A stretch of 64,000 nt of DNA, from positions 3,647 to 67,646 of the forward strand of contig CALGNI010000038.1 in NCBI GenBank assembly GCA_937958645.1. Direction: 5' to 3'. The position numbers were made by a program, and so were the translations under genes. This DNA is from Candidatus Absconditabacterales bacterium. Lineage in GTDB: Bacteria; Patescibacteriota; Gracilibacteria; Absconditabacterales; Absconditicoccaceae. Numbering within the stretch: position 1 is the stretch's first letter; every line of letters starts with the position of its first letter. Below the pieces are notes generated by a model. It was given only the letters and a program-made list of their open reading frames with translations. It made no database searches and was not told the origin of the DNA. Positions 44,428-63,928 of this stretch are shown in pieces.

Positions 44428-45456
44428 ATGATAATAGATCTCCATCAAGATTGGTCAGATAATAGTCTTACTACGACTCATAAGGATTTCTTTTCTAAGG
44501 AAGAAAATCTTCATGGCTGGAATATGGAATGAATGGACGCAGTAAATCATGCTACATTTGAAAAATTAAGATCATCAGGCATTGTTGCTGTCATAGGAGC
44601 GCTATTTATCGACCCGATCACAATGGAAGCGAGTGATCATTCATTTTCTCAGTGAAGACAACCCATCGAAGCTGCTTTGTATGAGCTACATCGTCACAAT
44701 AAGTTTTATGACTACGTAGTTTGAGCATCAGATGGAGAACTTCGTTTGATAGTATCAGGAAATGATCTGGATGAATGTATTCAAGAGAAGAAAATGTGAC
44801 TTATTAAGCATATCGAATGATATTATGTGCAAGATCCGTCAGGAAATATGGATGTGTTAGACCGCCTGTATGATCAGTGAATTAGATCGGTATGAATGAC
44901 TCGAAATATCAATAACAATTTAGCTCAAGCATCGAATGATGGAGAGCATACTCATTGATTGACTGAGTTGTGAAGAATCTTTGTAGAAACACTAATAAAA
45001 AAATGAATGATTCTTGATCTTGCTCATCTTTCGAGAACGTCAGTTGATGATGTGCTAGATATTGTCTCTTCTCCGGTTATGGTTTCTCATACTGCATTGA
45101 CCTGAGATAACGATAATCATAGATTTATCACTCCTGATCAAGCAAAGAAAGTAGCGGACAAGTGATGAATTATTTGATTAGCTGCTATGAAAAACAAATC
45201 TGATGAGTTTCCTCTAATCACACTTGATCATTATGGCGATCAAATAAAAACATTAATTAATTTGCTTGGAGAGGATTATGTCTGAATTTGAACGGATTTT
45301 GATTGATTGCCAAGTGAGTATGTGGTTGAATGATTTGATGATACGAGTAAATATCATCTAGTGCAAGAGCAGTTGCTAAAGAAATGACTCAAGCAAGCTC
45401 AAATTGAGAAAGTGATGTGATGAAATGCAAAGAGATTTATCCAGGCAGTATTATAA
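44428..45456 (+). CDS. membrane dipeptidase (peptidase M19) family protein
   Basis: 'IIDLHQD', 'LIKHIEG', 'GIRSVGMTRN', 'ILDLAHLS', 'VMVSHT', 'GIGTDFDG', 'VMGGNAKRF'. Confidence 0.75.
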
Positions 45457-45479
45457 ATATATAAAATTGTATGAAAAAA

Positions 45480-45506
45480 GAGTGAGACGTCTTCTCACTC
45501 TTTTTT
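45480..45506. terminator. bidirectional terminator between convergent genes
   Basis: gagtgaga/tctcactc stem flanked by A6 and T6. Confidence 0.75.
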
Positions 45507-45508
45507 CT

Positions 45509-46477
45509 TTATCAGGAGTATTTATATCACTTCCGTCTAGATTCAGCTTCAATATAAAGAATCACTACTTCTTGACCTACTTGCATATCATATGATGATA
45601 CTCAAAGGGATGTCTTTTTATCTATGATGCAAATAAGGTCAGGGAATGATGCTTCAAATCAAGAGCTAGAGATTTCCATATACTCGTTTTTGATGATAAC
45701 GTTTCGTTCAGTATTCTTGTCATCGAAAATTGATGCAGTTCACTGGAGGAATCATCACTTTTTGGTTATGTTTACCTGGTTGACTATTCACTGACTCACT
45801 ATCGTTCCTAGTGATGGCAAGATTTTTTCATCGTTTTCAATAGCCGCTCATACGAGAATACTTCTACTCAATGCTCATGCGCTTGCATGTTCTTTGAAGA
45901 TATTGGCTGTACAGATATGATCAATACAAATTAACGACCCTCAAGTTGTGGTTACCAATCTTCTCAGTTCTTTATCCGCTTTCTTGATATTTTGTTCTTC
46001 GAGGTAATGAATATGGAGATCTTTATCAACAGCGATGATGGGAAACACACTAATGCTAGCTAAGAGAAAGTTATCATATTGAAGTTCTGGCACAGCTCTT
46101 CCTCAAACAATATCAGCATCCACTAGGGGAATATTTGTCATTCAGCTCAAGCCAAGCACCATCATTTCAATTCCCGTTTCTACGGGAACTAGTCAGTGGA
46201 GATCCTGTTGATAGCGCTCATTGACATACTTGAGTCATGCTAGTGCTTGCTGTTTTATCGTGTCAGATACGGTTCAAGCAGGTCAAACACCATACACACA
46301 TGCAAGAAGCTGCGTATCATCAAACTCCTGAATTCCTTTTAGTTCAGGGTATGGAATCTTATCTTTTACGAATTTTTCTAACAATGATTCTTGGGTATCT
46401 ATCGAGAATCCTCATCATGTGCTAAATATTGATGCTCAAGCGATCATCTGTTTGCAGGTTTGATAATTAAGCTTCAT
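45509..46477 (-). CDS. DUF917 family protein
   Basis: 'GASIFSTGGGFS', 'VPVETGIEMMVLGLSGMTNIPLVDADIVGGRAVPELQYDNF'. Its start overlaps the upstream gene's stop by 11 nt. Ends TCC TGA TAA. Confidence 0.65.
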
Positions 46478-48270: not shown

Positions 48271-49236
48271 ATGAAAAATACACCATATATTGAAAACGCT
48301 CATATAAATATTGAGCAAGAGTTTAGATTGCTTAATGATTCATGAGAACTTGTTATAGAAAAAGATGGGATGAGTTTGCCAGAGTATATTCACTATTCGA
48401 TAAAGCTAAAACCTGAATTAACTTTATTGTTGAAGCAATGATACATCCAAATACACCCAGAATTTAATAAAGATCAGTTTGAAGTTGCAAGCTATGGGAA
48501 GAATAGTTTTTCATCAGTGAAAGATATTATGCTTACGACATATACTTGATTGTCTGAAGTGCTCGCTGAGCAGTGAGAAACCATAGATTTACGTGTACTT
48601 CCACCTGAAGGACCCGCGATATGACATACTGAATATAAACCCTATTATCCATTGTTAGCTAAGAAAGTAATAGAACAAACTGGTGATAGTAATTCGATTA
48701 AGAAATTTGATATTACTTCATGTCAGTTCAATATTGATGATCCTGAGTTGACTCTGTATAGAGCAATTGCAGATGATTTTCATCAGCACGGATTTTTTAA
48801 TTCGAAGTATGGCTCTTTGAGATCGCCACATAGAGCAAAGATTTTCAAAGATATTATTGATAGAATTACAGAAACCTGAATGATATCTTGAGGAATTTAC
48901 CCTCCATATCTTGAGTGAGTCACACTAGAAGAACCTTGATTTCTACCATTTATGCCCCCAAGTTCCTATGATAGAATGTTACGTAATGATGAACTACTAA
49001 AGTATTTTCTTGATTGACCAAATACTCAACATTATTTAGAAATTAAAAGCAGCGACATTAACAATTCAGGACATTACCTTGAAATCAAACCCTTTGATTT
49101 ATGAGTAGAAAATCATGGACTAATTGAATCTGGGGACTGAAGTGAGATTATTTCAAAAAGATATGATACAATTTACAAATATTTAATTGATACTCATGAT
49201 GAATATGATAACAGAATACCTCAATCTGAGATCTAG
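48271..49236 (+). CDS. divergent carboxylate-amine ligase-like protein (GCS2-like, tentative)
   Basis: 'IEQEFRLLNDSGELV', 'IHPEFNKDQFEVAS', 'LEIKPFD' loosely follow YbdK/GCS2 motifs. Track ORF 48652-48879 is in frame. Confidence 0.4.
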
Positions 49237-49268
49237 TACATTAAAAGTTTTATTAAAAGATACTTTCC

Positions 49269-50078
49269 ATGATATACCCAAGAATAGAAACTATTAACTC
49301 TTGAGTCCCTTGACCTACCACAACAATTATCTGAGGAATTCATGGGAATGAACCAACGTGATTTGAGTTGATTCAGATGCTAAAAGATTCGTTATGTATT
49401 GATGCTGGAGTAGTAACACTAATCTCAGCTCATCATGAGGCAAAAGAAAAGAATGCAAGATTCATCGATAAAGATCTTAATAGAAGTTTTGGTAAGAGCG
49501 TAGACGAGACCATTGAGTCTCGTCTTGCTCAACTCATATCTCCATATATCACAAAGGCTAACTATGTACTTGATGTCCACAATACAGTAAAAAACTCCTC
49601 ACCGAGATTTTGTATTAGTGAACATGAGGAGTTTGCGCAGTTTATTGGTATTCCTTTTTATGTTTGATGATGCTGAGAGAAATTTATGTGAAGTACCGAT
49701 CAATTTGCCGATCGTGAGTGAGCAAAGTGATTTTGTCTGGAAGCTTGATGGATTCATGAGAGTAAAGACCACACTCAGTTTGCTTACGATTCGAGTATTA
49801 ATCTTTTGAAGTCTTTTGGTAACATAGAATGAGATCCGAACAATTATTGATCAAGCAAGAAGTTGGTAATGGATATAATGTATCACGCTACCTGAAATTA
49901 TGAAAGTAAACGTGAGTTTGCTGATTTCGATCCAGTAAAGGCAGGGGAAATGATTTGAGTTGATGAAGATAGACCGATCATGGCAACTGAAGATTGATTT
50001 ATCTTATTTTCCAGCATGGAAGCAAGAAGAGGTGAGTTGGGCTTTATGTTTTTGAAGGAGAGGGGTAATTCTAAATAG
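49269..50078 (+). CDS. succinylglutamate desuccinylase/aspartoacylase (AstE/AspA, M14-like) family deacylase 1
   Basis: 'IIGGIHGNEPTG', 'IDKDLNRSF', 'VLDVHNT'. Track ORF 49368-49667 is in frame. Confidence 0.7.
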
Positions 50079-50251: not shown

Positions 50252-51961
50252 ATGCTCAATAATTCAAAAAATAACATCTTATGAAAGTATAAAAAGTATT
50301 TTCTAGAAGAATGAGAATGAAATGCTAGTGATGTAAAAAAATATTTTGATGGACTTTATGATAGAGTTTTTTCCAAGTTTCAAGAATGAAATCAAGCGTT
50401 AATGAAGAAAAATGATAATCAATCATTGCGTTATATTGATAGTATAAAAGATGAAACCTTCCCTGAAAAAGGATTAAACATTGATGAGGTCTTAGAAAAA
50501 ACAAGTAAGGCATTTTGATGAGCATTGAGACGACATTCAACTCAAACCGCGTATAACGTTTGACCTAGTCCAATTCTTCCTACTGTTGGTGTGAATGCAG
50601 TAGTAAACTTATTTAATCCTAACTGTTTAATGGATGAGGTTTGTTGAGACTTTATGGTGACTGAAAAAAAAGTAGTCAAATTTTTGAGTGATATCGCGTG
50701 AATAGATTACAATAAATCAGACTGAATGTCTACTTATTGATGAGCATGAACTTTAATGTATGCTATCAAGACTAGCCTTTGAAAGGTCTCTAGTACATCA
50801 TTTTCACAATGAATCCGTAATGATTATTACGTACTTACTTGAGAATCAAATCATTATTTTATCACAAATATATGCTGATTTCTTTGAATTTGAACAGATC
50901 AATGTATTAGGATACCTTCAATAGATCATGGAATTATGGATTTAGTAGAATTAAGATCAGTCTATGAATCCCTGCTTAAGGAAGATAAGAAGGTGATTTG
51001 TATAATAGCTAATTGATGAGAGACTATTAATCATGCAATTGATGATTTATCAGAAATAACAAAAATAATCGACAACCTCACTAAAATATATGAATCAAAC
51101 AGGCCCCATTTACATTTAGATAGTGTAAATTGACGATGTTGGTTAACATTTCAGTGATATGATTTCGAAGAAAATCAATTAAAGATCAATGAAATAGATT
51201 TAAGTAAAATTCGTAAAGCCTATACCTTACTTTCTAAAGTATACCTTGCTGACTCTTTTTCAGCAGATTTTCATAAAACATGACTATGTCCTTATACCTC
51301 AGCTTTTTATCTTGTTAAAAATTTTGAAGATTTAAAGCATATTCAATGAATTGAAAGTTATAAGAAGGATATTTCTCGATGAGAAGGAATTAATTTAAAA
51401 ACATCTATAGAGCATTCTAGATCTTGAACATGAATATTAAGTGCATATGTTTCAATATTAACAATGTGAAAAGAATGATTTCAAGCGTACTTGAGTACTT
51501 TATTCAATAGTTGAAGGAATATCAAGAACGTAATTTTAAATAAATATCCTGATAAGATTGAAATTGTAAATAAATTGTGAAATCGATTTGTTAATATTAT
51601 TGTACTTAAATTCTTTAACAATCAGCCTGAATTTGAAGATCTATGTAGGTCTAGCGATGAAATCAAATTGAAATACAATCAATTTGCTCGTTGATACTAT
51701 GAATTTTGTCTGTCTAAAGTTAGAGAATGAAATTCAATGTACCCATATTTATGATACATTAGTAATTATACACATTTAGGAGAAAAAACCTGATTGGTCA
51801 CTTTTAAGATCTATGGAATGTCAGTTAACTACACCAATAAAGATTATACTTATTTTGTGAAATCAGTGGTTCATTCGTTAAACGAATACAAGAAAACAAT
51901 GGCTAAATGATCAAATCGCAAGACTATGCTTACCAAAGAAAAAAGGCATACTTTAAAGTAA
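50252..51961 (+). CDS. group II PLP-dependent decarboxylase (aromatic amino acid/Tyr/Glu decarboxylase-like)
   Basis: 569-aa table-25 ORF with about 38 TGA. PLP-lysine motif 'SADFHKTGLCPY', and 'YGGAGTLMYAIK'. TAA at 51959. Confidence 0.7.
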
Positions 51962-51995
51962 AGGAGTAGTGCTATTTTAAATCTTATGACATAAT

Positions 51996-52766
51996 ATGGA
52001 TAAGATTATAGAATTTTATTGAACAAGATCTAAGAATGAGGTTGGTATTCTAAATACAGTTCTAGATGATCTGAATGAACTCTTAGTAAATGTTGATAGA
52101 TGAAATTCTCACAATATTTCATGTATATTATATTGATCTTTAGCAACCTATGACCAAACGAAAAATTCCGATATTGACGTAATGTTTATGAAGAACGGAA
52201 AATCATCTAAGGAATTGTTTGATCAATTGAAATGATGACTGATAGATATTTCAAAAAAAAACAAACTAGAAGTTGATGAAGAAGTCCCGTTCAAGAGTAA
52301 GTTGATATTCAGTCATAACGAAATTTTAGAGTCTTTGTTAGCAAAATGATTTCCAAACATAGATTGAAAAATAGAAGTTCCAAATATCATTTCAACTAAG
52401 GATCTTAGAAAAAAATCCACAAAAATTAGATTATGAACCAACATTATAACCACGCCAAATATTTGAATTTTCCATTCAGTAAGTGAAAAAGAATTTTATG
52501 ATCAAATAAAGTATAGATGATGATTGCTCTTACAAAGCTTGGCTAGAAACCTCTTTACACAAAATTTTAAAAATCAAAAGATCACTCAGAATGACCTTCT
52601 TGAAGTGTTGGCTACTAGCAATTGAAATGAATGAAGGAAGCATCTCTGATATAAAATTGAAAGGCCTTTTGTAAGAAAATATTTAGTTAACTTATTGGAA
52701 AAAAAGTACTCCAATCAGGAGTTAGATAGCATGGAAAATAGTTTATGAAGTCAAATATTTTTATAA
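51996..52766 (+). CDS. nucleotidyltransferase (Pol-beta superfamily) domain protein
   Basis: 'ILYGSLATYDQTKNSDIDVMF' matches the GS...D.D NTase motif. Confidence 0.55.
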
Positions 52767-52779
52767 TATACTTAAATTT

Positions 52780-53595
52780 ATGAAAATTAATTTACAAATA
52801 CTTTGATCTTGATGATCAATCCCTACGCCTAGAATATGATCAAAGAGTGAAATATCAAAATTGGCAAGAGAAGTCTGACATCCATATAAGAAGAACTCAA
52901 GCTGTCTGTGAATTCCTGAAATTCATGCACTTATTGATTGTCCCGAAGATATATCTGATTCATTAAATAAAATAGACTTTCCTAATGTAAAGCACTTATT
53001 CTTAACACATTGGCATCCTGATCATACATTTTGATTAAGAGTGTTGCTTTCAAGCGTATTCGATCCAATAGATAAGAAAATTGATGAGCCAATACAACTT
53101 TACTTTCCAAAAAAAGTTTATCAAGATTTAAGACAACATTACCCTTCAATTGATTATTTTGTTGATGAAATGTGATTTTGAGTTGTGAATTTCCTAGAGC
53201 ATTGAGAATCAGTAAATATTTGATGAGTTAGCATCACAACTATATGATATTCATGAGAATGATCATGGGTAAATTGATATTTAATTGAGTCAAACTGAAA
53301 GCGTGCTTTATATTCACCTTGTGAGACAATTTTATTCGAACAATTTGAAATTAATGATTTGGATATACTTATTACTGAGTGTTGAGTTTTTTCTTTTGAT
53401 AAGGTGAAAACTGAAATATCTTTTCCAAAAATGATCAAAAATATAGAGAGATTACAGCCAAAAAAAACGTATATAACCCATATTGAGGAAGTTGAATTAG
53501 CGAGATGGGGGTATGATTACTTGCAAGAAATGAAGGAAAAATATTCAGATATTCCTTTCGAATTCGCTTTAGATTGACTAAAAATAGACTTATAA
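52780..53595 (+). CDS. MBL-fold metallo-hydrolase
   Basis: 'ILGSGGSIPTP', 'LFLTHWHPDHTFGL' (HxHxDH). Confidence 0.7.
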
Positions 53596-53596
53596 C

Positions 53597-54955
53597 ATGT
53601 CAAAAAGTGTAACTATAGTCTGATGGGGAACAAGTGCAGCGATAGCTGCATTGAATTACTACAATGAATGATATAACATTGAAGTTTATACTAAGTGACC
53701 AGAACCTACGTTAGACAATATTTCATCATCGGATATTGACTTTTATGCTTCATCAATGACTTGATGAACTGATATTCAGCGTTTTATAACTTGAATTGAG
53801 TGAAATCCATGGAATTTTTGTGCTTTTAGTTCACACCAATGCGAAGACTGGTCTAAGATGTGGAAAACTACAATTTCCGAATGATGATGGTTAGAAAAAG
53901 AGGCCTCGCTTTATTCTAAAAAGATGCAAAATAAAATTAAAAATAGAGCTTTATTTTACAATAAAATGTGAATTGAAGAGCAAACTACTAACTATAATAA
54001 ATGGATTATTAAAAATAAGGAAAGTTTATCATTACGAAAAAAATGTATCATTGACTCACCAGAGCTATTTAAATGAACTGAAATACAGTGATTTGATTCT
54101 GGTGTGTTAAAACTCTTTTTGAATCAGAAATATTTTGAAAAAACATATTTCAAGTTCAAGAGACTTGATCTTTTAGCTAAAAAATTGACGTTTAAAAGTA
54201 TCGTAAACTGACATGAGATGTTTTGATTTCGAGAAAAATGAATAAATATATCTAAATTTACTTATCTATTGGTAAAGATTAAAGACCTTTTAATGTCAAA
54301 TTGAGTAAAATTTTATTTTGACAATGAAATTAAAAGCATTTCCTTAAATCGTAAAAAAATTATTGAATGAATAGTGTTGAGTTCATGAGAGGTAGTTCAT
54401 AATCAAAATTTTTCATTTCATTTGTGAGCTTATAATTCTAGTTCAAAAATTAATGCAGAGTTACAAGACATTGTTCCAGTTTGATGATTGTGGTCAATTG
54501 TTGAGATAGGAGACGAAGTCGATCCATTCTATCTTAAACATCCAATGAAACTTCACACGACTAAAGAAGGAGATATCTTCTGACGAGATATTAATATTTC
54601 CAGGATAGATCATCCAAATAAAAATTTATTTCTAGCATGATATTGATATATCGTGAGTGAGCATGCATGAAAACAGAACAGTGATATTGAATTTGCAAAA
54701 ACTAGACTTCATTCTCGATTTGAAACGGAGATTTGTAGACGGTTTAAGAAGAAAGATATTAAATCTATCAAACACATAGAAAATATTTGTTATAGGTCAT
54801 TTACACCAACGGACAGAGAGACATTATATGCATATGAAACATGAAAGTGATGAAAAGCAATATTCTGCTCAGGTTGAAATACTTGAAGCACTACAATTAG
54901 TTTTAAAGATGCAAAACTATGTATTGACATATTGAATAATAAAGTTAAGAACTAA
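53597..54955 (+). CDS. FAD-dependent oxidoreductase (DAO/amine-oxidase-like)
   Basis: N-terminal dinucleotide fold 'VTIVGWGTSAAIAALNYYNEGYNIEVY'. C-terminal 'FCSGGNTGSTTIS'. The start lies 1 nt after the MBL stop codon. Confidence 0.55.
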
Positions 54956-54980
54956 TTACTTTTATCTTTAAGTGTATCTC

Positions 54981-56291
54981 ATGGAATGAAATGACAAAAA
55001 TTTACCTAATGGTTATGAATCTACTCCTGACGATGAGAAAGTTACATTATGAAGTAAGAATTCTTTATTAGATTCATTACAATTGAATCGAGAGGAATAT
55101 TTGAACAATGCAATAGATACTGCAGAATCAGAGAAAAAAAAGGCATATTTTATGAGAATAAAAAAATTATTAGGATTGAAGGATTTATCTAAAGAACCAT
55201 GAAATCCTATCGCATTAATCATTGATAGTATAAAAAATGATGAATTTTATAGTTCTTTTGAAGATATTGAGGCTTCAGAAATTGCTTCAGAATGGGCGAC
55301 GTTTGATGTATTTAATTTTCCTGAGGACCATGTTGCTAGGAGAACATCAGATAGTTATTTCTTGTTAAAATCTAATAATGTTAGTGAAAGTATATTGCTT
55401 AGACCTCATACTTCGATCGTCCGATATGACTATTTAATGACGATGGATTGAAAGAAAAAACTAGAAGAAGAAGGGGAGATTAAGATATTATCATCTTGAA
55501 AAGTATATCGTGTTGATACTTTGGATCCAACTCATCATGAATGTTTTCATCAAATTGACTGATTGAGAATTGTTAAAAAGGACAAAGAAATTATTACACA
55601 AGAAACATTAAAAGATGTTTTAACAGTTACAATTAAGGCAGTTTTTGGTGACGATGTAGAGTTTAAATTTTATGAGGATAGCTTTCCATATACAGTTGAG
55701 TCATTAGAAGCATATGTTAAATTTGAGGATAAATGGATAGAAGTTTTAGGCGCATGAATAGTGCATCCTTCAGTTTTAGAGAAATTATGAATTAATTCTG
55801 ATGAATATAACTGACGGGCTTATTGATTTTGAATCGAGAGACTCGCTATGGCATTAAAGAAAGTGCCTGATATTAGAATTTTTTGGTCAGAAGATGAGAG
55901 AGTAACTAATCAGCGATGAAACTTTGAGCCGTATGAAGAAATCAGTAAATTCCCACCAGTTTACAAAGATATATCTTTAGTTGTTCCTAAAAATAAATTT
56001 GTTGAGGATACTTCTGAATGAGCTGATCCTTTTGATTTAAATGAAACAACAGAGTCAAATTTCTTTGAATTTTCAATTATTGCTAGAAATGTATGATGAG
56101 ATCTTATTGAAGCAGTAGAAATTACTGATATATTTAAGAATGATGCTAAATTTTGAGAGGAGTTGATGTCTATAACATTAAGAATTACGTTTAGATCATT
56201 AGAAAGAACTCTTACAAACGAAGAAATCAATAAAATGTACTTTGATATTAGACATGAAATTGAAAACTGATTAGGGTATGAATTAAGATAG
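54981..56291 (+). CDS. monomeric phenylalanyl-tRNA synthetase-like protein (PheS catalytic core fused to an FDX-ACB domain)
   Basis: 'FNFPEDHVARRTSDSYF', 'LLRPHTS', motif 2 'GKVYRVDTLDPTHHECFHQIDGL', motif 3 'AYGFGIERLAMAL' (TGA at 55824 and 55830), then 'FPPVYKDISLVVP...ITLRITFRS' (FDX-ACB). 436 aa. Confidence 0.8.
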
Positions 56292-56331
56292 AAACGATTT
56301 TTAGTTTGTCTTTAGTGTTAACATAGATTGA

Positions 56332-57138
56332 ATGGATGAAAATATCATACGTTCTCTAATAGGACGATGAATGACCGATAAGGAAGCCATAATATACTAC
56401 GCGCTTCTGGAACTATGAAGTTCTCCTGCGAGTTCAATTTCGAGATATTTAAATCAAAATAGAACTACAGTCTATACAATACTAAAAAGAATGAAAGAGA
56501 GATGAATTGTTCAAGAGTTAAGATCAAAAAAAACTTTATACTATTCAGTTATCGAGCCCGATAAGTTATTTAGAGACCTTTCCAATAGAGCGACAGCATT
56601 TAGCTCTATAATTCCTGAGTTATTAAACTTAAGTAAGTCTTTTGATTCTAAGCCAAAAATTCAATATTTTGAATGAAAAAAATGATTTCACTTTCTCATG
56701 GAAGATATTTTGGCAAGTAGATCTGATGTTAGATCTTTGCGAGGATCATCTCCGTTTTATACAGATGAGGAATTCATTTCTCGACTATCAAAATCTGCGC
56801 AAAAATATAGAGAAACTTTGCATAATAATTGATTTGTCTCTTATAGAATTTTCTGAATTAGTACTTTAAATACCCACATTGGGGATACATTAAAAAATGA
56901 TAAGTTATTCCGTAGAGAAATGAGAATAGTTGAAAATCCTATATTTGATATTAAAACAGATTTGGTGATATATGCAAAGGATAAGGTTTCATTATCATTT
57001 TTTGATGACAACTGAATTCCACATATTCTAATAATTACTAATGTAGCTATTTATAAAACTATGCTGAGCATCTTTAAGTTTCTTTGGTGAAGTTGAATAG
57101 AATATTCAGATGATTTTTTCCTTTGAAAGAAAAGATAA
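56332..57138 (+). CDS. TrmB-family transcriptional regulator
   Basis: 'GMTDKEAIIYYALLELGSSPASSISRYLNQNRTTVYTILKRMKERGIVQE'. Track ORF 56642-56869 is out of frame. Confidence 0.7.
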
Positions 57139-57214
57139 AGCGCTCAAGTAGTTGTTATATGAGATCGTTGACTATTCTGTATGTGCTTTTTTGAATTGAT
57201 TTGAACAACTTCTT

Positions 57215-57485
57215 TTATTGCGTCGCACTGAAGTGATGAGGTAATATTCCGAATATATATTAAATCAGAAATATCAAAACTTTTTTATAAGTTATATATG
57301 ACTAAATAATTCTACTTCTTCGTGATAGTAATGCTTTCCCAGACTTTCGAACGAAAACAAAGGTCTATCTTCGAGGAACGAGAAGAAAAATTGGGCGAAT
57401 AGTTTCATTTCATGAAACCGCTAATCAAAGATTAGTACTCCGTTCGCTTGCGACGGAGCAAGTCCAATCTTAGATTTTTGTTTTT
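57215..57485 (+). mobile_element. structured element copy B (rearranged, intergenic)
   Basis: The core 57313-57485 aligns with copies A and C and carries an extra hairpin insert. The 5' hairpin module (57215-57255) is present but inverted and displaced by about 57 nt. Confidence 0.65.
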
Positions 57486-57546
57486 ACTTCATTGCAAATT
57501 TGAGTATCTATTATATAGATATGTTGCGATTTATAACAGTCATATT

Positions 57547-58287
57547 ATGATTCAAAAAGTACTACAAGATATTTGATTTAGTGATAGGGAGGCTAAAATT
57601 TATTTAGCTTGACTTGAAACATGACTTGCTCCAGCTAGTAAGATTGCTAAATATGCTAATGAAAGAAGAGTGACAACATATCAAACTTTGTTACAAATGT
57701 CGAAAAAACAATGGGTAAAACAGGTAGTTAAGAATAATGTGTCTCAATACGAGATGGTTTCACCAAAAGAGTTATGAACTATTTATACTAAGAGAGTTTG
57801 ATTATTAAACGAAAAAATACCAGAGATGGTTGCGTTAATGAACAACTTTTCTTCGAAACCTATTGTGAAATATTATCAATGAAGAGAACAGCTAAAAGAG
57901 CTATTTAATAAGATCGTTTTTGATTGATTTAAAATGAATCAGGATGATTATTTTTTAAGTTTTCTATGAACTTGAGACGTAGATAAAGAATTTTCTAATC
58001 GGCTTTCAACTGAATTTAAAAGATACAGACTCACTTGTCCTACTAGATCAAGATTTCTCCTTTCAGAGTGAGATCATGAATATTTAAAATATAATATGAA
58101 ACATCACGAATTTCGTTTGGTAAAAGACCCTATATTTAAAATTGCAAATCAGATAGTTATTTATGGAGATCTTAAAGTAGCTATTTTGATGTATAACGCT
58201 GACGAATTATCTTGAGTAGTTATTCAAAGTCAAAGTTTTCATGATGCTCTAAAATGAATATTTTATACTATTTGGAACGTGCTTTAA
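57547..58287 (+). CDS. TrmB-family transcriptional regulator
   Basis: 'GFSDREAKIYLAGLETGLAPASKIAKYANERRVTTYQTLLQMSKKQWV'. 246 aa. Confidence 0.7.
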
Positions 58288-58438
58288 GAATTCAAAACTT
58301 ATTAAATTTGTTTTGTTGTTTATTTTTACAACACGTAGCTTTTAAAAACCTTGTTATTAAATAAATCTCTACTAATATGAACTTTAATACTACATTGAAG
58401 TTTTTTTAGATAGTATTTATTTGCTCATATCAATTCAA

Positions 58439-59203
58439 ATGAAGCTTACAAAAAAAAGTTATGAACGTGAATCTCATAGTATTTGGAGGGCAATGTATAC
58501 TATGCAGATGGATACAATCAAAAAGTATGATTGCGTTTCTAAAGAAATTTTGAAATGAATTCACAAGATCGGTTTCGATCCCAAAAAAATACCTAATGCT
58601 CGTAATATATCTAGAAAATTAATATGATTAACATGATGGTCTCTTTGTGATGCAACTAGTCCTTTTATGACACATGATGATTGGTTTTCGTGTTTGATAA
58701 ATAAGAAATTTCCTGTTACCAATTATATTCGTAAACATAAGGATATACTCTATACTCCATTGCCAGATATGTTTCACGAATATTTTTGACATATGCCTCA
58801 AATGTCACTTGACTTCTTTGCTAATTTAGAGTATAAAATGGCTAGAATTCATCAGAATGCAATTTCATTAGATCTTAAGATAAAATTATATGATTTCTCA
58901 TGGTGGACTATTGAGTACTGAGTACTTATGGAAGATTGAATTCCAAAAGCAGTCTGAGCATGATTGTTATCTTCTCCTTGAGATTTGCGTGATTTTGTTG
59001 ATTGAAAATTTGAACTAAAAAGATGAACTCTTGCTTCTTTGATATCTCATAAGCCAAGTCCACATCAACAGCATAAATTTCTTTTCTATTTTGAATCACT
59101 TCAAGAGTGGGATACATTGCTAGATGAATACGTTGCGTTTTCAAAGAAACAATCTAAAGTAAAAGAATGATTGCCCTCTGGAAGGGTAATTAGTGATGAA
59201 TAG
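58439..59203 (+). CDS. phhA: phenylalanine-4-hydroxylase (aromatic amino acid hydroxylase family)
   Basis: 'PLPDMFHEYFGHMP' (iron His pair), 'WWTIEYGV', 'GAGLLSSPGD'. Confidence 0.8.
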
Positions 59204-59232
59204 TGATTTTAGTTATTTACTGATCTAATTAA

Positions 59233-60375
59233 ATGGAAAACGTTAATGCAAGTTGATACATAAATAAGAATGTCGAAATTAGAAATGACAAAAACATTAT
59301 TCAATTGTCGTTGTGACGTAATCCTTTAGGAATGCATCAAGCTTTGAAAGATTTTTATAAATCTTGAGAAAACTGACTTCTTATTCCATCTGAATCATAT
59401 TGAGATCCAAGTTTAACAGCTTCGAAATCGCTTATTGTAGAATGATTGTGATTGCAAGATGTGACTAATGATCAAATATTACTCGATTGAAATTGAAGTT
59501 ATGGTATGTGAGATGAGATAACACGTATTTTGGCAAATCAATGATTCAAAACTATAACAGTTTTGCCATACTCATTTCCAAATGTATGAGAACGAGCGAA
59601 AAGACATAAAGTACAGTACAAGAGCTATTGAGAAGAGAAAGATTCAATACAAGAAAATTTTGATAAATTGTTGAATAGCTCTAATAATTCTTTTATCGAG
59701 AGTATAGTCTATATTGATTTTCCAAATAATCCAACATGATTTAGTGTAAATGTTGAAAAACTTTACGATTTGGTAACCAAAGTTAAAAAATCAGGTTGAA
59801 TTGTCTTCTTGGACTGAGCATTTTGAGAATACAATGAAGATTTTTCACTAATAATATCGGAAGTTGTAAGAAGATGATGAATTGTTATCTGATCTACTTC
59901 AAAAATGCATTGAATTCCTGATATGAGAATTGGTCGATGAGTTCTCCCAGAGGACTTAGTTTGAAAGACAGATTCGTTGGTATTTTGAATTAATCATTTT
60001 ACAAAAGTGACAATAAAAAAACTCTTTGAACAAGATGAAAATAATGAATCAATTTCATCACTTCATATTCAAGATTCTATACAACACAATACTAAAGTTA
60101 ATAAAATCTTAACCCAAGAGCTTGATAGGTTGTGATATACTGTTCTATCATCAAATTTGCAAGTACCGATTCAAACAGTAATATCGCATATTCATGAGGA
60201 TTTATATACTGTTCTGAAAAATGAATGAAAGATTGCTACTGAATCACTGCATCACTACAATAGCACGTTACTTGATTCTAAAAAATGATATGAGGAGACT
60301 TGAGTGCGCATGCTGACTCCACATGAAGATCAGTTAGATTTGGTTATAGAAAGATTTAAGAAAATAAATAAATAA
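59233..60375 (+). CDS. class I/II PLP aminotransferase (histidinol-phosphate/aromatic aminotransferase-like)
   Basis: 'YIDFPNNPTGF', 'GSTSKMHGIPDMRIG' (PLP Lys). Starts 30 nt after the phhA stop. Confidence 0.7.
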
Positions 60376-60411
60376 ATTTTGATGAACTTAGTTTTATTCT
60401 GTATTTATTAG

Positions 60412-61827
60412 ATGAAAGAAACATACTGAGCAGAAATAGAATTTTTCTCTACTAATAGCGATTGAAAATTAACATGAATTGACGCAGCATGATATGTTAA
60501 TAACTCACTAAATGATTCATCAAGCATGAAATTACATCATGATTCTTGTACGCATTTACTTGAGTTGAACTGAATCGTTTCTGAGGATTTGTCTCTAATC
60601 TTGAGTCAAATTGTGAATGACGTAGATGAGGCAATTAGATATGTTCATAACAAGGATCTTCATGTGCTGAATTCTTCAACACATCCAACTATGACTCATG
60701 CTGAAGCTTATCAAAATAATATTCGTAAGCCGATATATGCTTTATTAAGGCCTGCATCTCATGAAAATGATGTAAATATTCAGTCAGCATTACAGTCAAA
60801 TCATAGAAATTGGAAGCATGAACTCTCTTCATTACATGCTGGTATTCAACCATGGAATTCAATTGAAATAGACTCACTTCAAGAATCATACAATTCATTA
60901 CTTGCTACAGATTTCTTGATTCGTTATTTATCAGCAAATAGCCCATTTTTTGAAGGAAAAATTCAATGATGATTAGATAATAGATGGAGAATGTACGATC
61001 AAGAAAAGTGAATGTTATCAACCTCGATTTATAGTGACGAAACTAGTTGACTGATAAAAAAATATAATCATGATGAAATTACTCTTTCAAAATATCTTGA
61101 TGGTGTATTTTCTCAAAGCAATTTATTTTGAATATGAACTAAGAAGAGTATGTTTGTTCATCAATCACAAAATAAAATTTATGAAGTATTTTGAGATTCA
61201 GGAAAAGAGAAATTTTTGGACATAAATACTTTAAAAACACATACTTTAGATCCATTTGAATCATTCTCTTTTAATGAGCTGGCAAGATTTATACCATATT
61301 TCACTTCATTTTGAATTAGATTAGTTTGAGGAGAAACTATCACTTGAGAAGATTTTAAGCTAACGATGAAATATATACAAGAAAAAAATGAAACTAATCT
61401 GTTACGTATGTTTAAGAAGTATTGAATCAAATTTGCAGTTGAGTGAAGATGATGATCAACGGTGATGCCTGAATGAGATGATTATTCACTTATGTTATTG
61501 CCTTTAATACTCCAATCATATGCTTTAAAGGAGTCCTCTGCTGTAAATAAACGGATAAATCAGCAGCAATGATGATGGGACACGATCAGTAAATTAAATA
61601 AATCTGTTCTAGATTGATGAATTTCTGAAGAGTATACAGAATTTGCTTTGTGATTAATGGAAGTATTATTCGATTCTACTCAAGAATTGTGAGATTCTTC
61701 AGGGTTAATTAACCAATCAGTAGAAAAAGCAAAGGATATGATTAGACTCAATGAAAATAAGGCTCAAAGAGACATTAAGCTTTCAAAAGGTAGTGTTGAT
61801 AAATATACTGAGATGAATTTACTATAG
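60412..61827 (+). CDS. glutamate-cysteine ligase family 2 (GCS2) type carboxylate-amine ligase
   Basis: 'YGAEIEFF', 'LLELN', 'SLHAGIQPW', 'LSANSPFFEGK', 'AVEGRGG'. Track ORF 60589-60969 is in frame. Confidence 0.6.
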
Positions 61828-61836
61828 TATAGGCTT

Positions 61837-62952
61837 ATGATTATAAAATCTTGTGAAATCAGAGTTATATCAGTACCAATGAAGCAATCACTTCTTGTAT
61901 CTTTTGGTGAACTTAAAGAGATTCAAACATTAATTATCGAATTAAAAGATGAGGATTGAAATATTTGATATGGAGAAAGTATTTTAGTGCCATTTCTATC
62001 TTCTTCATTTACGAGTTTTGATGTGTGAAGAATTGTTGCAAAAAAGTATTTAAAACCACTTGTGCAATGATATGAGATTGATGATTATGAAGACCGGAAA
62101 AAAACAATAAGTAAGTTTTCAAAGCACTTAGATCAGATATATTGATATGAAATGGTGAAAGCTTGATTTAATAATGCTTGTATTCATTTGTTGGCAAAAA
62201 GAAAATGACTGTCAGTTTTTCAACTATTCGATGTCAATAAGTCAGAATTTAATGCGCAAGAATCCATTTCAATATGAGATTTTGACTCTATTTCAGCTGA
62301 ATTAGATATATTGAAGAAAAAATGATACACCTTTGTTAAAATAAAAATATGAGATAATAGTGACCTAGATTTGCTATCGACTTTAATCAAATCAAATCCT
62401 TCACTTAAGATTTGAGTCGATGCGAATGCTTGATTCAATAGGTGAGATACTGATTCGCTGCTATTATTTGCGAAAAATAGTTGAGTAGCTTTTATTGAGC
62501 AGCCATTCTGAAAAGAAAGGCTTTTTGACCATGCTCAACTCCAACTATGATTGAAATGTTGAGTGAGCTTAGATGAATCAATAATAACAATTAACGATCT
62601 TAGTGATGCCATTAATTTAGTTTCTTGTAGAATGATAAATATAAAAATTTGAAGAGTCTGATGATTGATGCATTGAATTAAATTGTATGAGCTTGCAGAA
62701 CGTAACCATATTGATGTACGAGTTTGATGAATGTTAGAAACCTGAATTTGAAGAATATATAGTCTTTGCTTATGAGCGCTGATCCAGAATGAAGTTTGAC
62801 ATGATATTTCTGAAGTAAATACTCGATATGAACAAGATATTGTGAAAAAATCATACAAAATAGAAGAAGGAAAATTGAAAATACTGAATTTAACTAAAGA
62901 TATCGAAATTGATTTTGAGGTTTATGAAAAATATACTATTGAAATCTTTTAA
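61837..62952 (+). CDS. enolase-superfamily enzyme (OSBS / N-succinylamino-acid racemase / dipeptide epimerase subgroup)
   Basis: 'FVKIKIG', 'IGVDANAGF', 'FIEQPF', 'VSLDESI', 'INIKIGRVGG', 'GGMLETGIG'. Confidence 0.75.
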
Positions 62953-62971
62953 TCTTAACCTAATCTAAAAA

Positions 62972-63928
62972 ATGAATTCAATACTTACCTCTGTACACAA
63001 TGAAGTGCCTTGAGTACTGCATCTGGATTCTTGAACACAGTGACCTGTATTCTGAGTTAGCTCATGCGTTCATTGATGAGAAGTGACTTGAATAAGAATT
63101 ATTGAAGAATTTCTTAAGAGTAATAAAGAATGAAGAATAAAATTAATAAAATGATCGTTAATGTTAATTCTCGCAAATGTAGATGCGTATAAGTCATTTA
63201 TAGATGTTACTTCTTCGTTAGATAATACTATGACTAAGGAGAAATTAGAGGCAGTGAAAAAATATAGATATCTAGATGAAAATATGAATCGCTGTACAGC
63301 TGAAGATAACTTGAATGTATCCATATCAAGAGAAGTGAAAAGAGTGAATGAATTATCAAAAACATTAGAAAATATTGATATCTTGTTGGATATACATACC
63401 ACCAGTACACCTTCAGACTCAATTATGATTTATTCTTCTTGAATGGGTCGTGAAAAATATTCTGATATATGTAACACAAAAGAACATCTGATAGATATTA
63501 CTGATCATCTAGCTTGAAAACCATTTTTTGATATGGTAGAGCGTAGTGGAGGAGTATGACTAGCAATTGAGTCTTGATATGAACTAGATGATCAATGATA
63601 TAAAGTATGATTTGAAAATCTAATTAGATTGCTAGATGAGGAATGAATGATAGAAGTAGAATGATGAGTCGATCAATTTTACTCTCCTAGAAAAGAAAAT
63701 AGAAAAATACAGATCTATGATCATATTGTCTTCAGAAATAATGATTTCTCCTCAATTTATCTTAAAGATAAGCCATTGCATCATGGACAAATTCTTCCGG
63801 AAGGGACGTATATGTGATTTGATTGATTAGCTGATATATTCTTGAGTGAGGTGTCAATTATAATTATGCCGAATGTAGGAGTAAAATATATATGAGAAGA
63901 GTTTTGTTTTTTGTGAAGATTAGTCTAG
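62972..63928 (+). CDS. succinylglutamate desuccinylase/aspartoacylase (AstE/AspA) family deacylase 2
   Basis: 'GVSSCVHGGEVTG', 'LDENMNR', 'LLDIHTTS'. Track ORF 63161-63442 is in frame. Confidence 0.65.

What the first reader, a model, noticed from the sequence alone, without database searches (positions are those of the whole stretch)
60412..63928. Duplicated ligase-deacylase modules bracketing the cluster, one with an NSAR/OSBS racemase
A GCS2-type carboxylate-amine ligase followed by an AstE/AspA zinc deacylase occurs at both ends of the cluster (48271-50078 and 60412-63928). At the 3' end an enolase-superfamily OSBS/NSAR/dipeptide-epimerase enzyme (61837-62952) is wedged between them. NSAR-type enzymes act on N-acyl or N-succinyl amino acids, and AstE/AspA enzymes remove such acyl groups. 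An acylate, racemise, deacylate logic (D/L interconversion or processing of an N-acyl aromatic amino acid) is therefore plausible. The two modules are highly diverged paralogues rather than a recent duplication.
Basis: inference. Interest (0 to 1): 0.6.

Follow-up and report, generated by a model that had tools for sequence, protein, structure and literature searches.

The report
Ligase–racemase–deacylase amino-acid conversion operon
In a tiny bacterium that reads the stop codon TGA as glycine, three adjacent genes (an ATP-using ligase, an N-acyl-amino-acid racemase and a zinc deacylase) most likely tag, flip and untag D-amino acids, probably phenylalanine or tyrosine, to recover usable L-amino acids; this is a known pathway in which both helper enzymes have been replaced by unrelated ones.

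Summary
The genes are real, but only if TGA is read as Gly (table 25). At 27 TGA positions in the enolase gene, homologues mostly have Gly and never Trp.

The 3' trio is confirmed:
- 60412-61827 is a very divergent GCS2-type ligase.
- 61837-62952 is an NSAR/OSBS-subfamily enolase enzyme with every catalytic residue.
- 62972-63928 is an AstE/AspA hydrolase with its Zn ligands and catalytic Glu.

The genome has no MenB and no real MenD, and all four AstE/AspA paralogues keep the Zn ligands.

The two closest relatives of the enolase in reference genomes are the only two of 80 loci with a GCS2 ligase directly upstream. One is followed by an M20 deacylase; the other sits beside a D-Ala-D-Ala dipeptidase. 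Other relatives sit in the published GNAT-NSAR-M20 D-to-L operon, often among aromatic amino-acid genes. Another genome of the phylum has GNAT-enolase-AstE/AspA.

So the acylate-racemise-deacylate reading is well supported by context. No activity, substrate or direction is shown.

The "duplicated ligase" is not supported: the 321-aa ORF at 48271 is not detectably GCS2. AstE/AspA genes do not bracket the cluster: two more exist.

Verdict: new variant of a known kind; moderate interest.

The parts
60412..61827 (+). Divergent GCS2-type (YbdK-like) carboxylate-amine ligase, 471 aa, 26 TGA=Gly codons. Proposed ATP-dependent N-acylating enzyme. Motifs: G6-x-E8-x-E10, L-E51-L, S-A-N-S-P-F (174-179), N-R-W-R, V-E-G-R (343-346).
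   Evidence: Pfam GCS2 32.4 bits against GA 21. hhalign to a GCS2 alignment E 5.4e-4. HMM score above all 500 shuffles. BLASTP 1.6e-6 to the ligase upstream of the closest enolase relative, L049. hhalign to the L049+L048 ligases E 1e-4 over 318 columns. No other relative among 5.8e9 proteins. AF2 model failed, pLDDT 34.
61837..62952 (+). NSAR/OSBS-subfamily enolase-superfamily enzyme, 371 aa, 27 TGA=Gly codons. Proposed N-acyl-amino-acid racemase. Catalytic residues: K168/K170, D195, E221, D246, K270, R273, G297-GMLETGIGR-306.
   Evidence: TIGR01928 197.7 bits. Best PDB matches 1WUF, 1WUE, 3QLD, 2ZC8, 1SJA. Residue mapping to Amycolatopsis NSAR. Trees. Absent from 59 of 60 relatives.
62972..63928 (+). 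AstE/AspA-family zinc hydrolase (AstE2), 318 aa. Proposed N-acyl-L-amino-acid deacylase. Residues: H34, E37 (HGGE), R107 (NMNR), H142 (LDIH), E200 (IESG).
   Evidence: Pfam AstE_AspA_cat 1e-9, 38.6 bits against GA 25. Motif alignment of the four paralogues. H-E-H Zn triad of the fold as described in PMC9974463. Most divergent paralogue, at most 27% identity to relatives.
59233..60375 (+). Class I/II (HisC-like) aminotransferase, 36 nt upstream of the ligase. A conserved companion of this enolase clade.
   Evidence: Pfam Aminotran_1_2 6.6e-17 and TIGR01141 1e-22. Homologous aminotransferase directly upstream of the acylating enzyme and enolase in L022 (25%, 1e-10) and in L115 (28%, 2e-18).
58421..59203 (+). 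Phenylalanine-4-hydroxylase-type aromatic amino-acid hydroxylase. First gene of the tightly spaced five-gene run (gaps 29, 36, 9 and 19 nt).
   Evidence: Pfam Biopterin_H 1.8e-30 and NF008877 1.3e-46. Spacing. No terminator-like site in 57-64 kb.
50252..51961 (+). Group II PLP-dependent decarboxylase, 569 aa, in the same compositional block. The same enzyme type accompanies the enolase module in two other CPR genomes.
   Evidence: Pfam Pyridoxal_deC. L049 has a decarboxylase directly after the enolase. The L115 decarboxylase matches at 3e-9. Composition.
48271..49236 (+). 321-aa protein of a tiny family, function unknown, not demonstrably GCS2. It forms a conserved two-gene unit with AstE1.
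   Evidence: No Pfam hit. Only 2 relatives among 1.84e9 representatives. hhalign to GCS2 E 0.21. Shuffle test negative. Pair with AstE conserved in L034 but not in G019.
49269..50078 (+). AstE/AspA-family zinc hydrolase (AstE1), 269 aa. Residues: H25, E28, R72, H104, E158.
   Evidence: Pfam 3.4e-17. PDB matches to succinylglutamate desuccinylase and aspartoacylase. Motifs. Orthologue at 51% identity next to the 321-aa family gene in L034.

Best explanation
Genes 60412-63928 form a three-enzyme 'tag, flip, untag' module that converts D-amino acids to L-amino acids. It is most likely co-transcribed with the aminotransferase and the Phe hydroxylase just upstream.

Proposed steps:
1. The GCS2-type ligase uses ATP to join a carboxylic acid to the amino group of a D-amino acid. 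The acid is probably a dicarboxylate such as succinate, or the side-chain carboxyl of Glu or Asp.
2. The NSAR-type enolase enzyme racemises the alpha-carbon of the N-acyl amino acid through a metal-stabilised enolate, using its two lysines.
3. The AstE/AspA zinc hydrolase removes the acyl group from the L-isomer only, which pulls the equilibrium toward the L-amino acid.

The likely substrates are hydrophobic or aromatic amino acids (Phe, Tyr). The module is a CoA-independent version of the published Geobacillus pathway (GNAT succinyltransferase, NSAR, M20 desuccinylase). The ligase stands in for the GNAT and AstE/AspA stands in for M20.

Shown here: family membership, intact catalytic residues, gene order, absence of men genes, and interchangeable partners in related operons.
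Inferred: every activity, the acyl donor, the amino-acid substrate and the D-to-L direction.
For: 1. Enolase identity. [quoted passage not shown] In this subfamily, function is assigned from genome context and from whether menaquinone is needed (PMC12006748).
2. No MenB and only sub-threshold ThDP-enzyme hits for MenD in a 91.5%-complete genome; the controls rang.
3. Census of 80 reference loci. Within 3 kb of the enolase: GNAT partner 16, GNAT+M20 11, M20 8, GCS2(+M20) 2, none of these partner families 39; in four more loci the script did not recover the enolase ORF. The two GCS2 loci are the two best matches to the window enolase (33% identity). L048 reads GCS2-enolase-M20. L049 reads M15 D-Ala-D-Ala dipeptidase, GCS2-like, enolase, PLP decarboxylase, with an AstE/AspA-like gene upstream.
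4. The window ligase is homologous to those ligases (BLASTP 1.6e-6; hhalign 1e-4 over 318 columns).
5. Metagenomic relatives. P0003 sits in aminotransferase-GNAT-enolase-M20. P0050 sits in GNAT-enolase-M20 inside a chorismate/prephenate/DAHP/TyrRS cluster. P0010 and P0070 have the GNAT directly upstream of the enolase. P0011 has an M20 directly upstream of it.
6. G332 in the same phylum has PALP-GNAT-enolase-AstE/AspA with overlapping genes. G444 has an ATP-grasp ligase in the acylating position. So both swaps occur independently.
7. The genome has no homologue of the canonical GNAT partner or the M20 partner, and no SucC.
8. All four AstE/AspA paralogues keep the Zn and catalytic residues. 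Known members hydrolyse N-succinyl-Glu, N-acetyl-Asp and beta-Asp-Arg (PMC9974463).
9. Gaps of 9-36 nt and no terminator-like site.
10. The canonical pathway is described in bioRxiv 10.1101/2022.03.03.481873.
Against: - No biochemical data exist for any of the three proteins.
- The ligase is extremely divergent. It has no relative in a 5.8e9-protein search, profile probabilities are only 30-57%, and the structure model is unusable. One nearly invariant GCS2 position (D339 of the reference) appears substituted.
- The enolase sits on a very long branch (1.7-4 substitutions per site). Its grouping with the GCS2- and GNAT-context clade has only SH-aLRT 74-96, with long-branch warnings.
- 39 of the 80 related loci show none of the tested partners.
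- The module is absent from all four same-genus genomes, so it is accessory and its role could be niche-specific.
- The direction rests only on the L-specificity of characterised AstE/AspA enzymes.
- Absence of men and SucC genes is negative evidence from an incomplete MAG.
Confidence: 0.6

Rival explanations
1. Same three chemistries, but used in the opposite or a biosynthetic direction. The module would make a D-amino acid, or keep an N-acyl or gamma-glutamyl D-amino acid as a product (for the envelope, a signal or a toxin), not salvage D-amino acids.
For: NSAR is freely reversible. The ligase's stereopreference is unknown. The gene is accessory and patchy. The genome also has a GNAT, Asp/Glu racemase, GNAT, AstE4 cluster, so it invests in D/L chemistry generally.
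Against: Characterised AstE/AspA members act on N-acyl-L-amino acids (NCBIfam names). A deacylase at the end of the operon would undo a stable N-acyl product. Related operons sit with L-amino-acid supply genes (aromatic biosynthesis, aaRS, aminotransferase) and with a D-Ala-D-Ala dipeptidase that releases D-amino acids.
Confidence: 0.13
2. Peptide rather than N-acyl chemistry. The enolase would epimerise a cell-wall-derived or gamma-glutamyl dipeptide, like L-Ala-D/L-Glu epimerase working with an M14-type amidase. AstE2 would act as the peptidase, and the ligase would make or recycle such peptides.
For: AstE/AspA shares the carboxypeptidase A fold, and one member is a beta-Asp-Arg dipeptidase. 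GCS2 enzymes make gamma-Glu amides (the YbdK reference cited). L049 has an M15 D-Ala-D-Ala dipeptidase in the same gene run. The best PDB hit, LiOSBS, lies in a cell-wall gene cluster. G264 pairs a double ATP-grasp L-amino-acid-type ligase with an enolase.
Against: The window enzyme scores far better against NSAR/OSBS models than against Ala-Glu epimerase models (197.7 bits against 77 and 48). It carries the NSAR/OSBS 'GGMLETGIGR' strand, not the 'GCMxES'-type strand seen in the five other Patescibacteria enolases, which resembles (from memory) that of dipeptide epimerases. A gamma-Glu or beta-Asp tag would in any case be a sub-case of the main model.
Confidence: 0.12
3. The three genes are neighbours without a shared pathway. 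They would be independent amino-acid-processing enzymes gathered in an accessory region.
For: The contig is rich in miscellaneous amino-acid enzymes and duplicated pairs. 39 of 80 related enolase loci show none of the tested partners. The exact combination GCS2-NSAR-AstE/AspA was found only here.
Against: The genes have 9- and 19-nt gaps and uniform composition. The ligase-enolase pair is conserved in the two closest relatives. A deacylase follows the enolase in many independent lineages.
Confidence: 0.1
4. The enolase is a genuine o-succinylbenzoate synthase for menaquinone synthesis.
For: The best NCBIfam model is menC_lowGC_arch (197.7 bits). Nearly all database relatives are annotated OSBS.
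Against: The score is below the model's cut-off. There is no MenB, and only weak generic ThDP hits for MenD. None of the nine contexts read gene by gene was a men operon; the census did not test for men genes. The lineage is CPR with reduced metabolism.
Confidence: 0.02

Closest known systems
[quoted passage not shown]
   Same: Same central enzyme subfamily with the same catalytic residues. Same three-step protect, racemise, deprotect logic. Same gene order: acylating enzyme, racemase, deacylase. Relatives of the window enolase sit in exactly this operon.
   Different: Both partners are replaced by unrelated folds. An ATP-dependent GCS2-type ligase replaces the CoA-dependent GNAT, and an AstE/AspA zinc hydrolase replaces M20. 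The genome has no homologue of the canonical GNAT or M20 partner. The acyl donor is therefore probably a free acid, not succinyl-CoA.
GCS2 ligase, NSAR-type enolase, M20 operons of CPR bacteria. Seen here in L048 and, without M20, in L049. Reported only in unchecked notes of this scan (e1-2096759, e1-856137, e1-2042737). I did not search the literature for this operon type, and none of the papers I read describes it.
   Same: Homologous ligase (about 500 aa) directly upstream of the closest enolase relatives. An aminotransferase and a group II decarboxylase recur as companions.
   Different: Here the deacylase is AstE/AspA, not M20. The ligase and enolase are far more diverged (22% and 33% identity) and are written in the TGA=Gly code.
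AstE (succinylglutamate desuccinylase), aspartoacylase, DoeB and CphZ: the characterised AstE/AspA family
   Same: Catalytic-domain match above Pfam's cut-off. H-x-x-E ... H zinc triad, the conserved Arg and the catalytic Glu are present. All known members cleave an N-acyl or isopeptide bond to an L-amino acid.
   Different: Scores lie far below every equivalog cut-off (38-47 bits against 180-400). AstE2 has a 21-residue insertion and at most 27% identity to any relative sampled. No member is known to act downstream of a racemase.
YbdK / GCS2 carboxylate-amine ligases (PF04107)
   Same: The N-terminal G-x-E-x-E strand, the A-N-S-P-F...G...R segment and the late E-x-R motif are present and collinear.
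   Different: Only the first 100 residues reach Pfam significance. The substrates are unknown. No GCS2 enzyme is known to N-acylate D-amino acids.
DgcN/DgcA N-acetyl-D-glutamate racemase route (NCBIfam NF042940; pathway details from memory)
   Same: Another acylate-then-racemise route that uses an enolase-superfamily racemase.
   Different: The window enzyme scores 90 bits against a cut-off of 400 for DgcA, so it is not a member.

Membership tests
NSAR/OSBS subfamily (MLE subgroup, enolase superfamily) | KxK motif, D-E-D metal ligands and second catalytic Lys | tested here: met
   K168/K170, D195, E221, D246 and K270 align to K161/K163, D189, E214, D239 and K263 of Amycolatopsis NSAR.
NSAR/OSBS subfamily (MLE subgroup, enolase superfamily) | Second-shell Arg equivalent to R266, conserved throughout the subfamily (PMC12006748) | tested here: met
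   R273 in N-I-K-I-G-R-V-G-G. Literature.
NSAR/OSBS subfamily (MLE subgroup, enolase superfamily) | Groups with subfamily members, not with Ala-Glu epimerases or muconate cycloisomerases | tested here: met
   TIGR01928 197.7 bits against 86 (muconate cycloisomerase) and 77 (Ala-Glu epimerase). The top five PDB hits are all NSAR/OSBS. The trees place it inside the family. The score is 3 bits under the TIGR01928 cut-off.
NSAR/OSBS subfamily (MLE subgroup, enolase superfamily) | N-succinylamino-acid racemase activity | not testable with these tools
   Needs an enzyme assay.
Genuine menaquinone OSBS (MenC) | Other men genes present in the genome or in the operon | tested here: not met
   MenB: 0 hits. 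MenD: 62 and 34 bits against a cut-off of 244. No men gene lies near the window gene or in any of the nine related contexts read gene by gene.
GCS2 / YbdK carboxylate-amine ligase (PF04107), 471-aa protein | Match to the family model above the curated threshold | tested here: met
   32.4 bits against 21, residues 6-100 only.
GCS2 / YbdK carboxylate-amine ligase (PF04107), 471-aa protein | Conserved core motifs across the catalytic domain | tested here: met
   G-x-E-x-E, the second-strand E, A-N-S-P, G...R and E-x-R are present. Two conserved positions (E107 and D339 of the reference) are substituted. hhalign E 5e-4 and 1e-4. BLASTP 1.6e-6 to the L049 ligase.
GCS2 / YbdK carboxylate-amine ligase (PF04107), 471-aa protein | Glutamine-synthetase-like fold | tested here: inconclusive
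   Single-sequence AF2 model has pLDDT 34. No fold search was attempted on it.
GCS2 / YbdK carboxylate-amine ligase (PF04107), 321-aa ORF at 48271 | Any significant sequence or profile match to the family | tested here: not met
   No Pfam hit at E<=1. hhalign E 0.21. HMM score within the shuffle range. PDB profile search empty. AF2 pLDDT 33.
AstE/AspA zinc hydrolases (PF24827) | Catalytic-domain match above threshold | tested here: met
   AstE2 38.6 bits and AstE1 63.1 bits against a cut-off of 25.
AstE/AspA zinc hydrolases (PF24827) | H-E-H zinc triad plus catalytic Glu | tested here: met
   AstE2: H34, E37, H142, E200. AstE1: H25, E28, H104, E158. All four paralogues keep them. The triad is described in PMC9974463.
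AstE/AspA zinc hydrolases (PF24827) | C-terminal barrel-sandwich hybrid domain (PF04952) | tested here: inconclusive
   Pfam did not report it for AstE1 or AstE2, though it did for the G332 homologue. The C-terminal regions align among the paralogues.
Canonical D-to-L conversion operon (GNAT + NSAR + M20) | GNAT succinyltransferase partner | tested here: not met
   No homologue anywhere in the genome (tblastn with table 25).
Canonical D-to-L conversion operon (GNAT + NSAR + M20) | M20 L-desuccinylase partner | tested here: not met
   No homologue of the operon-type M20 in the genome.

The most novel reading that the evidence does not exclude
Some CPR bacteria would run a CoA-free amino-acid stereo-inversion pathway. 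An orphan GCS2-type ligase would spend ATP to attach a free dicarboxylate, or the side-chain carboxyl of Glu or Asp, to a scavenged D-amino acid. An NSAR-family enzyme would racemise that conjugate. An AstE/AspA hydrolase, a family never linked to racemases, would release the L-amino acid. This would give three new enzyme activities. If the tag is gamma-Glu or beta-Asp, it would also give the first NSAR-family enzyme acting on an isopeptide. It would further offer a route by which host-dependent bacteria feed on D-amino acids from prey cell walls.
Probability: 0.3. Interest if true: 0.7.

Novelty: new variant of a known kind. Interest (0 to 1): 0.55.

Why it matters
- **Enzyme evolution.** NSAR/OSBS enzymes are a textbook case of function evolving from promiscuity, and their biological roles are assigned from context. 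Here the racemase is kept in an organism that cannot need OSBS. Both partner enzymes have been replaced by unrelated folds, which is strong natural evidence for the pathway logic.
- **New activities.** The module points to a possible ATP-dependent, CoA-independent N-acyl-amino-acid synthetase and a new AstE/AspA deacylase specificity. Both would interest people who use NSAR and acylases for dynamic kinetic resolution of amino acids.
- **CPR biology.** It suggests how an ultra-small, biosynthetically poor bacterium without a visible succinyl-CoA source could recover L-Phe or L-Tyr from D-amino acids.
- **Annotation.** Public protein sets hold these genes translated with TGA = Trp, so about 6-7% of the residues in the two proteins checked are wrong.

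Tried and rejected
- **Structure prediction.** The 471-aa ligase (single sequence) and the 321-aa ORF (3-sequence alignment) both gave pLDDT about 33. No fold search was run on them.
- **PDB sequence and profile searches.** Empty for both ligase candidates and for AstE2.
- **MAFFT --add shuffle test.** A test of conserved-column matches was invalid because adding 200 sequences changed how the real ones aligned. It was replaced by an HMM-score shuffle test (after two script errors).
- **Pairwise BLASTP to canonical GCS2.** Comparing the window ligase with canonical GCS2 from relatives gave nothing significant. Significance came only with the NSAR-adjacent ligases.
- **Distant enolase in same-family genome G022.** It lies in an unrelated context (MiaA, lysozyme, TPR), so it is not informative.
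- **G019 homologue of the 321-aa ORF.** It has no AstE neighbour.
- **Promoter scan.** Below shuffle expectation, so uninformative.
- **Five other enolase hits in the phylum.** Only 21-26% identical, with a different eighth-strand motif. I treat them as analogous modules, not orthologues.
- **AU test of a GCS2-context clade.** It did not finish in time.
- **Horizontal transfer.** I considered reading the low-GC block as a recent transfer and did not adopt it. Other genes of the genome share the same composition (ArgRS and the second DUF917/M19 pair).


Full report
**1. Is it there?**

Under the standard bacterial code the last 20 kb of the window holds only nine ORFs of 80 aa or more. Reassigning TAG or TAA does not.

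TGA makes up 5-7% of codons. In the enolase gene, 27 TGA codons align to positions where 119 homologues mostly have Gly; 13 or more of these are near-invariant Gly, and none is Trp. So the organism uses table 25 (TGA = Gly). It is a Gracilibacteria-type member of the CPR/Patescibacteria. Its genome is 1.55 Mb in 105 contigs and 91.5% complete. The public protein collection holds these proteins translated with TGA = Trp: P0001 and P0121 are 93-94% identical to the correct translation.

**2. The three genes of the finding**

*Enolase member, 61837-62952 (371 aa).* Pfam gives MR_MLE_C 7e-25. The best NCBIfam model is TIGR01928 (menC_lowGC_arch) at 197.7 bits, just under its 200.65 cut-off and far ahead of DgcA (90), muconate cycloisomerase (86) and Ala-Glu epimerase (77). 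The five best solved structures are all NSAR/OSBS-subfamily enzymes: 1WUF, 1WUE, 3QLD, 2ZC8 and 1SJA. Mapped on Amycolatopsis NSAR, every catalytic residue is present:
- K168/K170 (KxK)
- D195, E221, D246 (metal ligands)
- K270 (second Lys)
- R273, the equivalent of R266. This second-shell residue lets the second lysine act as acid/base in the racemase reaction (PMC12006748).

Pocket positions L19, F23, V51 and L54 are hydrophobic.

*AstE2, 62972-63928 (318 aa).* It passes Pfam's AstE_AspA_cat threshold. It has H34-G-G-E37, N-M-N-R107, L-D-I-H142 and I-E200-S-G. This is the H-E-H zinc triad, the conserved Arg and the catalytic Glu of the fold (the fold is described in PMC9974463).

*Ligase, 60412-61827 (471 aa).* It has no relative other than itself among 5.8 billion proteins or in 60 related genomes. 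It still counts as GCS2, for these reasons:
- Pfam GCS2 scores above threshold over residues 6-100.
- hhalign to a 32-sequence GCS2 alignment gives E 5e-4 over residues 50-354.
- The signature L-S-A-N-S-P-F-F-E-G-K...N-R-W-R is present, and most of the invariant core is kept.
- Its HMM score exceeds all 500 shuffles.

**3.

Neither condition holds. The genome has no MenB-like gene. Its only MenD-model hits score 62 and 34 bits against a cut-off of 244, while the control genomes ring as expected. All four AstE/AspA paralogues keep their zinc ligands. An OSBS role is therefore very unlikely.

**4. What relatives show**

The enolase gene is accessory. It is absent from all four same-genus genomes and from 59 of 60 relatives. 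The next-best database proteins are only 30-34% identical.

The contexts of those relatives are informative:
- P0003: aminotransferase, GNAT-like, enolase, M20.
- P0050: the same GNAT-like, enolase, M20 unit inside an aromatic cluster (EPSP synthase, chorismate mutase, prephenate dehydrogenase and dehydratase, chorismate synthase, DAHP synthase, TyrRS).
- P0010 and P0070: the GNAT directly upstream of the enolase.
- P0011: an M20 directly upstream of the enolase.

This is the published D- to L-amino-acid conversion operon: GNAT succinyltransferase, NSAR/OSBS, M20 L-desuccinylase (bioRxiv 10.1101/2022.03.03.481873).

Unchecked notes from earlier agents claimed that CPR bacteria have GCS2-racemase-M20 operons. 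I tested this independently. A scan of one genome per species with an enolase alignment returned 80 loci.

| Partner within 3 kb | Loci |
|---|---|
| GNAT partner only | 16 |
| GNAT + M20 | 11 |
| M20 only | 8 |
| GCS2 (with or without M20) | 2 |
| none of these partner families | 39 |
| enolase ORF not recovered by the script | 4 |

The two GCS2 loci are the two best matches to the window enolase (33% identity; E 5e-54 and 4e-51).
- L048 reads GCS2 (505 aa, Pfam 2.9e-10), enolase, M20.
- L049 (Candidatus Saccharimonadales) reads AstE/AspA-like, a second enolase, an M15 D-Ala-D-Ala dipeptidase, GCS2-like (506 aa), enolase, group II PLP decarboxylase.

The window ligase matches the L049 ligase by BLASTP (1.6e-6). 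It matches the pair by hhalign (E 1e-4, 318 collinear columns). So the ligase-racemase pair is homologous and syntenic across these three loci.

In Collierbacteria (L115) the order is decarboxylase, aminotransferase, GNAT, enolase. Its aminotransferase is 28% identical to the window's.

A separate survey of 401 genomes of the phylum found five more enolase modules, from a more distant subgroup (21-26% identity):
- G332: PALP, GNAT, enolase, AstE/AspA, with overlapping genes.
- G326: PALP, GNAT, enolase, M20.
- G444: PALP, ATP-grasp ligase, enolase, M20.
- G264: double ATP-grasp ligase, enolase.
- G243: PALP, enolase, M20.

So the acylating position can be filled by a GNAT, an ATP-grasp ligase or a GCS2 ligase. 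The deacylating position can be filled by M20 or AstE/AspA.

Phylogeny places the query on a very long branch. It groups with the P0003/P0050 clade (SH-aLRT 96 under LG+G4, 89 under C20). Once L048, L049 and L115 are added, it falls in an eight-member clade with them (SH-aLRT 74). This agrees with the context evidence but is not strong on its own.

**5. Mechanism proposed**

The spacing suggests one transcript. The order is Phe hydroxylase, aminotransferase, ligase, racemase, AstE2, with gaps of 29, 36, 9 and 19 nt. No terminator-like site lies in 57-64 kb, and composition is uniform (GC 0.29; TGA is 74-95% of Gly codons).

The steps would be:
1. The ligase N-acylates a D-amino acid at the cost of ATP.
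2. The enolase racemises the N-acyl amino acid.
3. AstE2 hydrolyses the L-isomer.

The genome lacks the canonical GNAT and M20 partners. It also lacks a SucC-like gene, which fits a CoA-independent acylation.

All activities, the acyl donor, the substrate and the direction are inferences.

**6. What is not supported**

The 321-aa ORF at 48271 cannot be shown to be a GCS2 ligase. It belongs to a tiny family with two relatives among 1.84 billion representatives. It does form a conserved pair with an AstE1 orthologue in one other TGA-recoded organism, so it may well be functionally linked to AstE1. Its chemistry is unknown.

'Bracketing' is also inaccurate. A GNAT-like gene plus AstE3 lie 2-3 kb past the window end, and that pair is conserved in two same-class genomes. 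On contig C55, a GNAT, an Asp/Glu racemase, a GNAT and AstE4 lie in tight order. Each of the four AstE/AspA genes thus follows a putative or unknown amide-forming partner, and two of the four modules contain a racemase of unrelated fold.

**7. Verdict**

The finding is a real, intact, probably co-transcribed ligase-racemase-deacylase module. It works like the known D-to-L conversion pathway but is not a member of the canonical operon, because both partner enzymes are displaced by unrelated folds. It is a new variant of a known kind. None of the papers I read describes a GCS2-NSAR operon, though I ran no literature search aimed at one. Its interest is moderate, and it is directly testable in vitro.

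Noticed in passing
G000 contig C55:16910-19844 (minus strand), outside the window: A second racemase-containing AstE/AspA module. The order is GNAT (198 aa), Asp/Glu racemase (PF01177, 4.5e-20), GNAT (212 aa), AstE4 (281 aa), with gaps of 73, 9 and 12 nt. Each of the genome's four AstE/AspA genes directly follows a putative amide-forming enzyme.
   Followed up: partly
contig C38 just past the window end (window-equivalent 64075-67311): The cluster continues with a Glu/Leu/Phe/Val-type dehydrogenase, a GNAT-like protein and a third AstE/AspA gene. The dehydrogenase has 0 TGA among its 38 Gly codons, whereas its neighbours use TGA for 74-95% of Gly codons. The GNAT-like + AstE pair is conserved in two same-class genomes (L005, L008).
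   Followed up: partly
window 60412-62952 and 48271-49236; proteins P0001, P0121, P0122, P0123: Public protein collections hold these proteins, and relatives from other TGA-recoded organisms, translated with TGA = Trp (table 4) where Gly (table 25) is correct. For the two window proteins checked (P0001, P0121), about 6-7% of residues are wrong, which lowers family-model scores.
   Followed up: yes
window 50252-63928 compared with its flanks: A 13.7-kb block is compositionally uniform (GC 0.28-0.31; TGA is 74-95% of Gly codons). The neighbouring genes differ (orf321 0.55, AstE1 0.62, AstE3 0.38, AsnRS 0.20). Other genes of the genome share the low-GC, high-TGA class, so this is not clearly an island.
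   Followed up: partly
window 44428-46477 and C38:81485-83547: A DUF917 (S-Me-THD-like) gene and an M19 dipeptidase gene occur as a pair twice on the same contig, about 33 kb apart.
   Followed up: no
window 53597-54955: A 452-aa ORF with a Rossmann-type G-x-G-x-x-A N-terminus and no Pfam family sits in the middle of the cluster, translationally close to the MBL-fold hydrolase (a 1-nt gap).
   Followed up: no
L043, L044, L045, L047 (G326, G243, G444, G332): In four Patescibacteria genomes the enolase module is headed by a PALP-family PLP enzyme. In three of them (G326, G444, G332) it carries an N-terminal Cys-rich motif (C-x2-C). This conserved extra component has an unknown role.
   Followed up: no
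L049:3421-7116 (Candidatus Saccharimonadales): An M15 (VanX-type) D-Ala-D-Ala dipeptidase lies immediately upstream of the GCS2-like ligase and NSAR-type enolase, and a second enolase paralogue lies before it. This ties the module to D-amino acids released from cell-wall peptides.
   Followed up: partly
L016 (G060:C1:41256-43347) and L017 (G029:C19): Other ligase-hydrolase pairs occur in the same class. One is a 440-aa GCS2 followed by a Peptidase_C26 (PuuD-like) amidohydrolase. Another is a 260-aa mini GCS2-like protein followed by an M20 peptidase.
   Followed up: no
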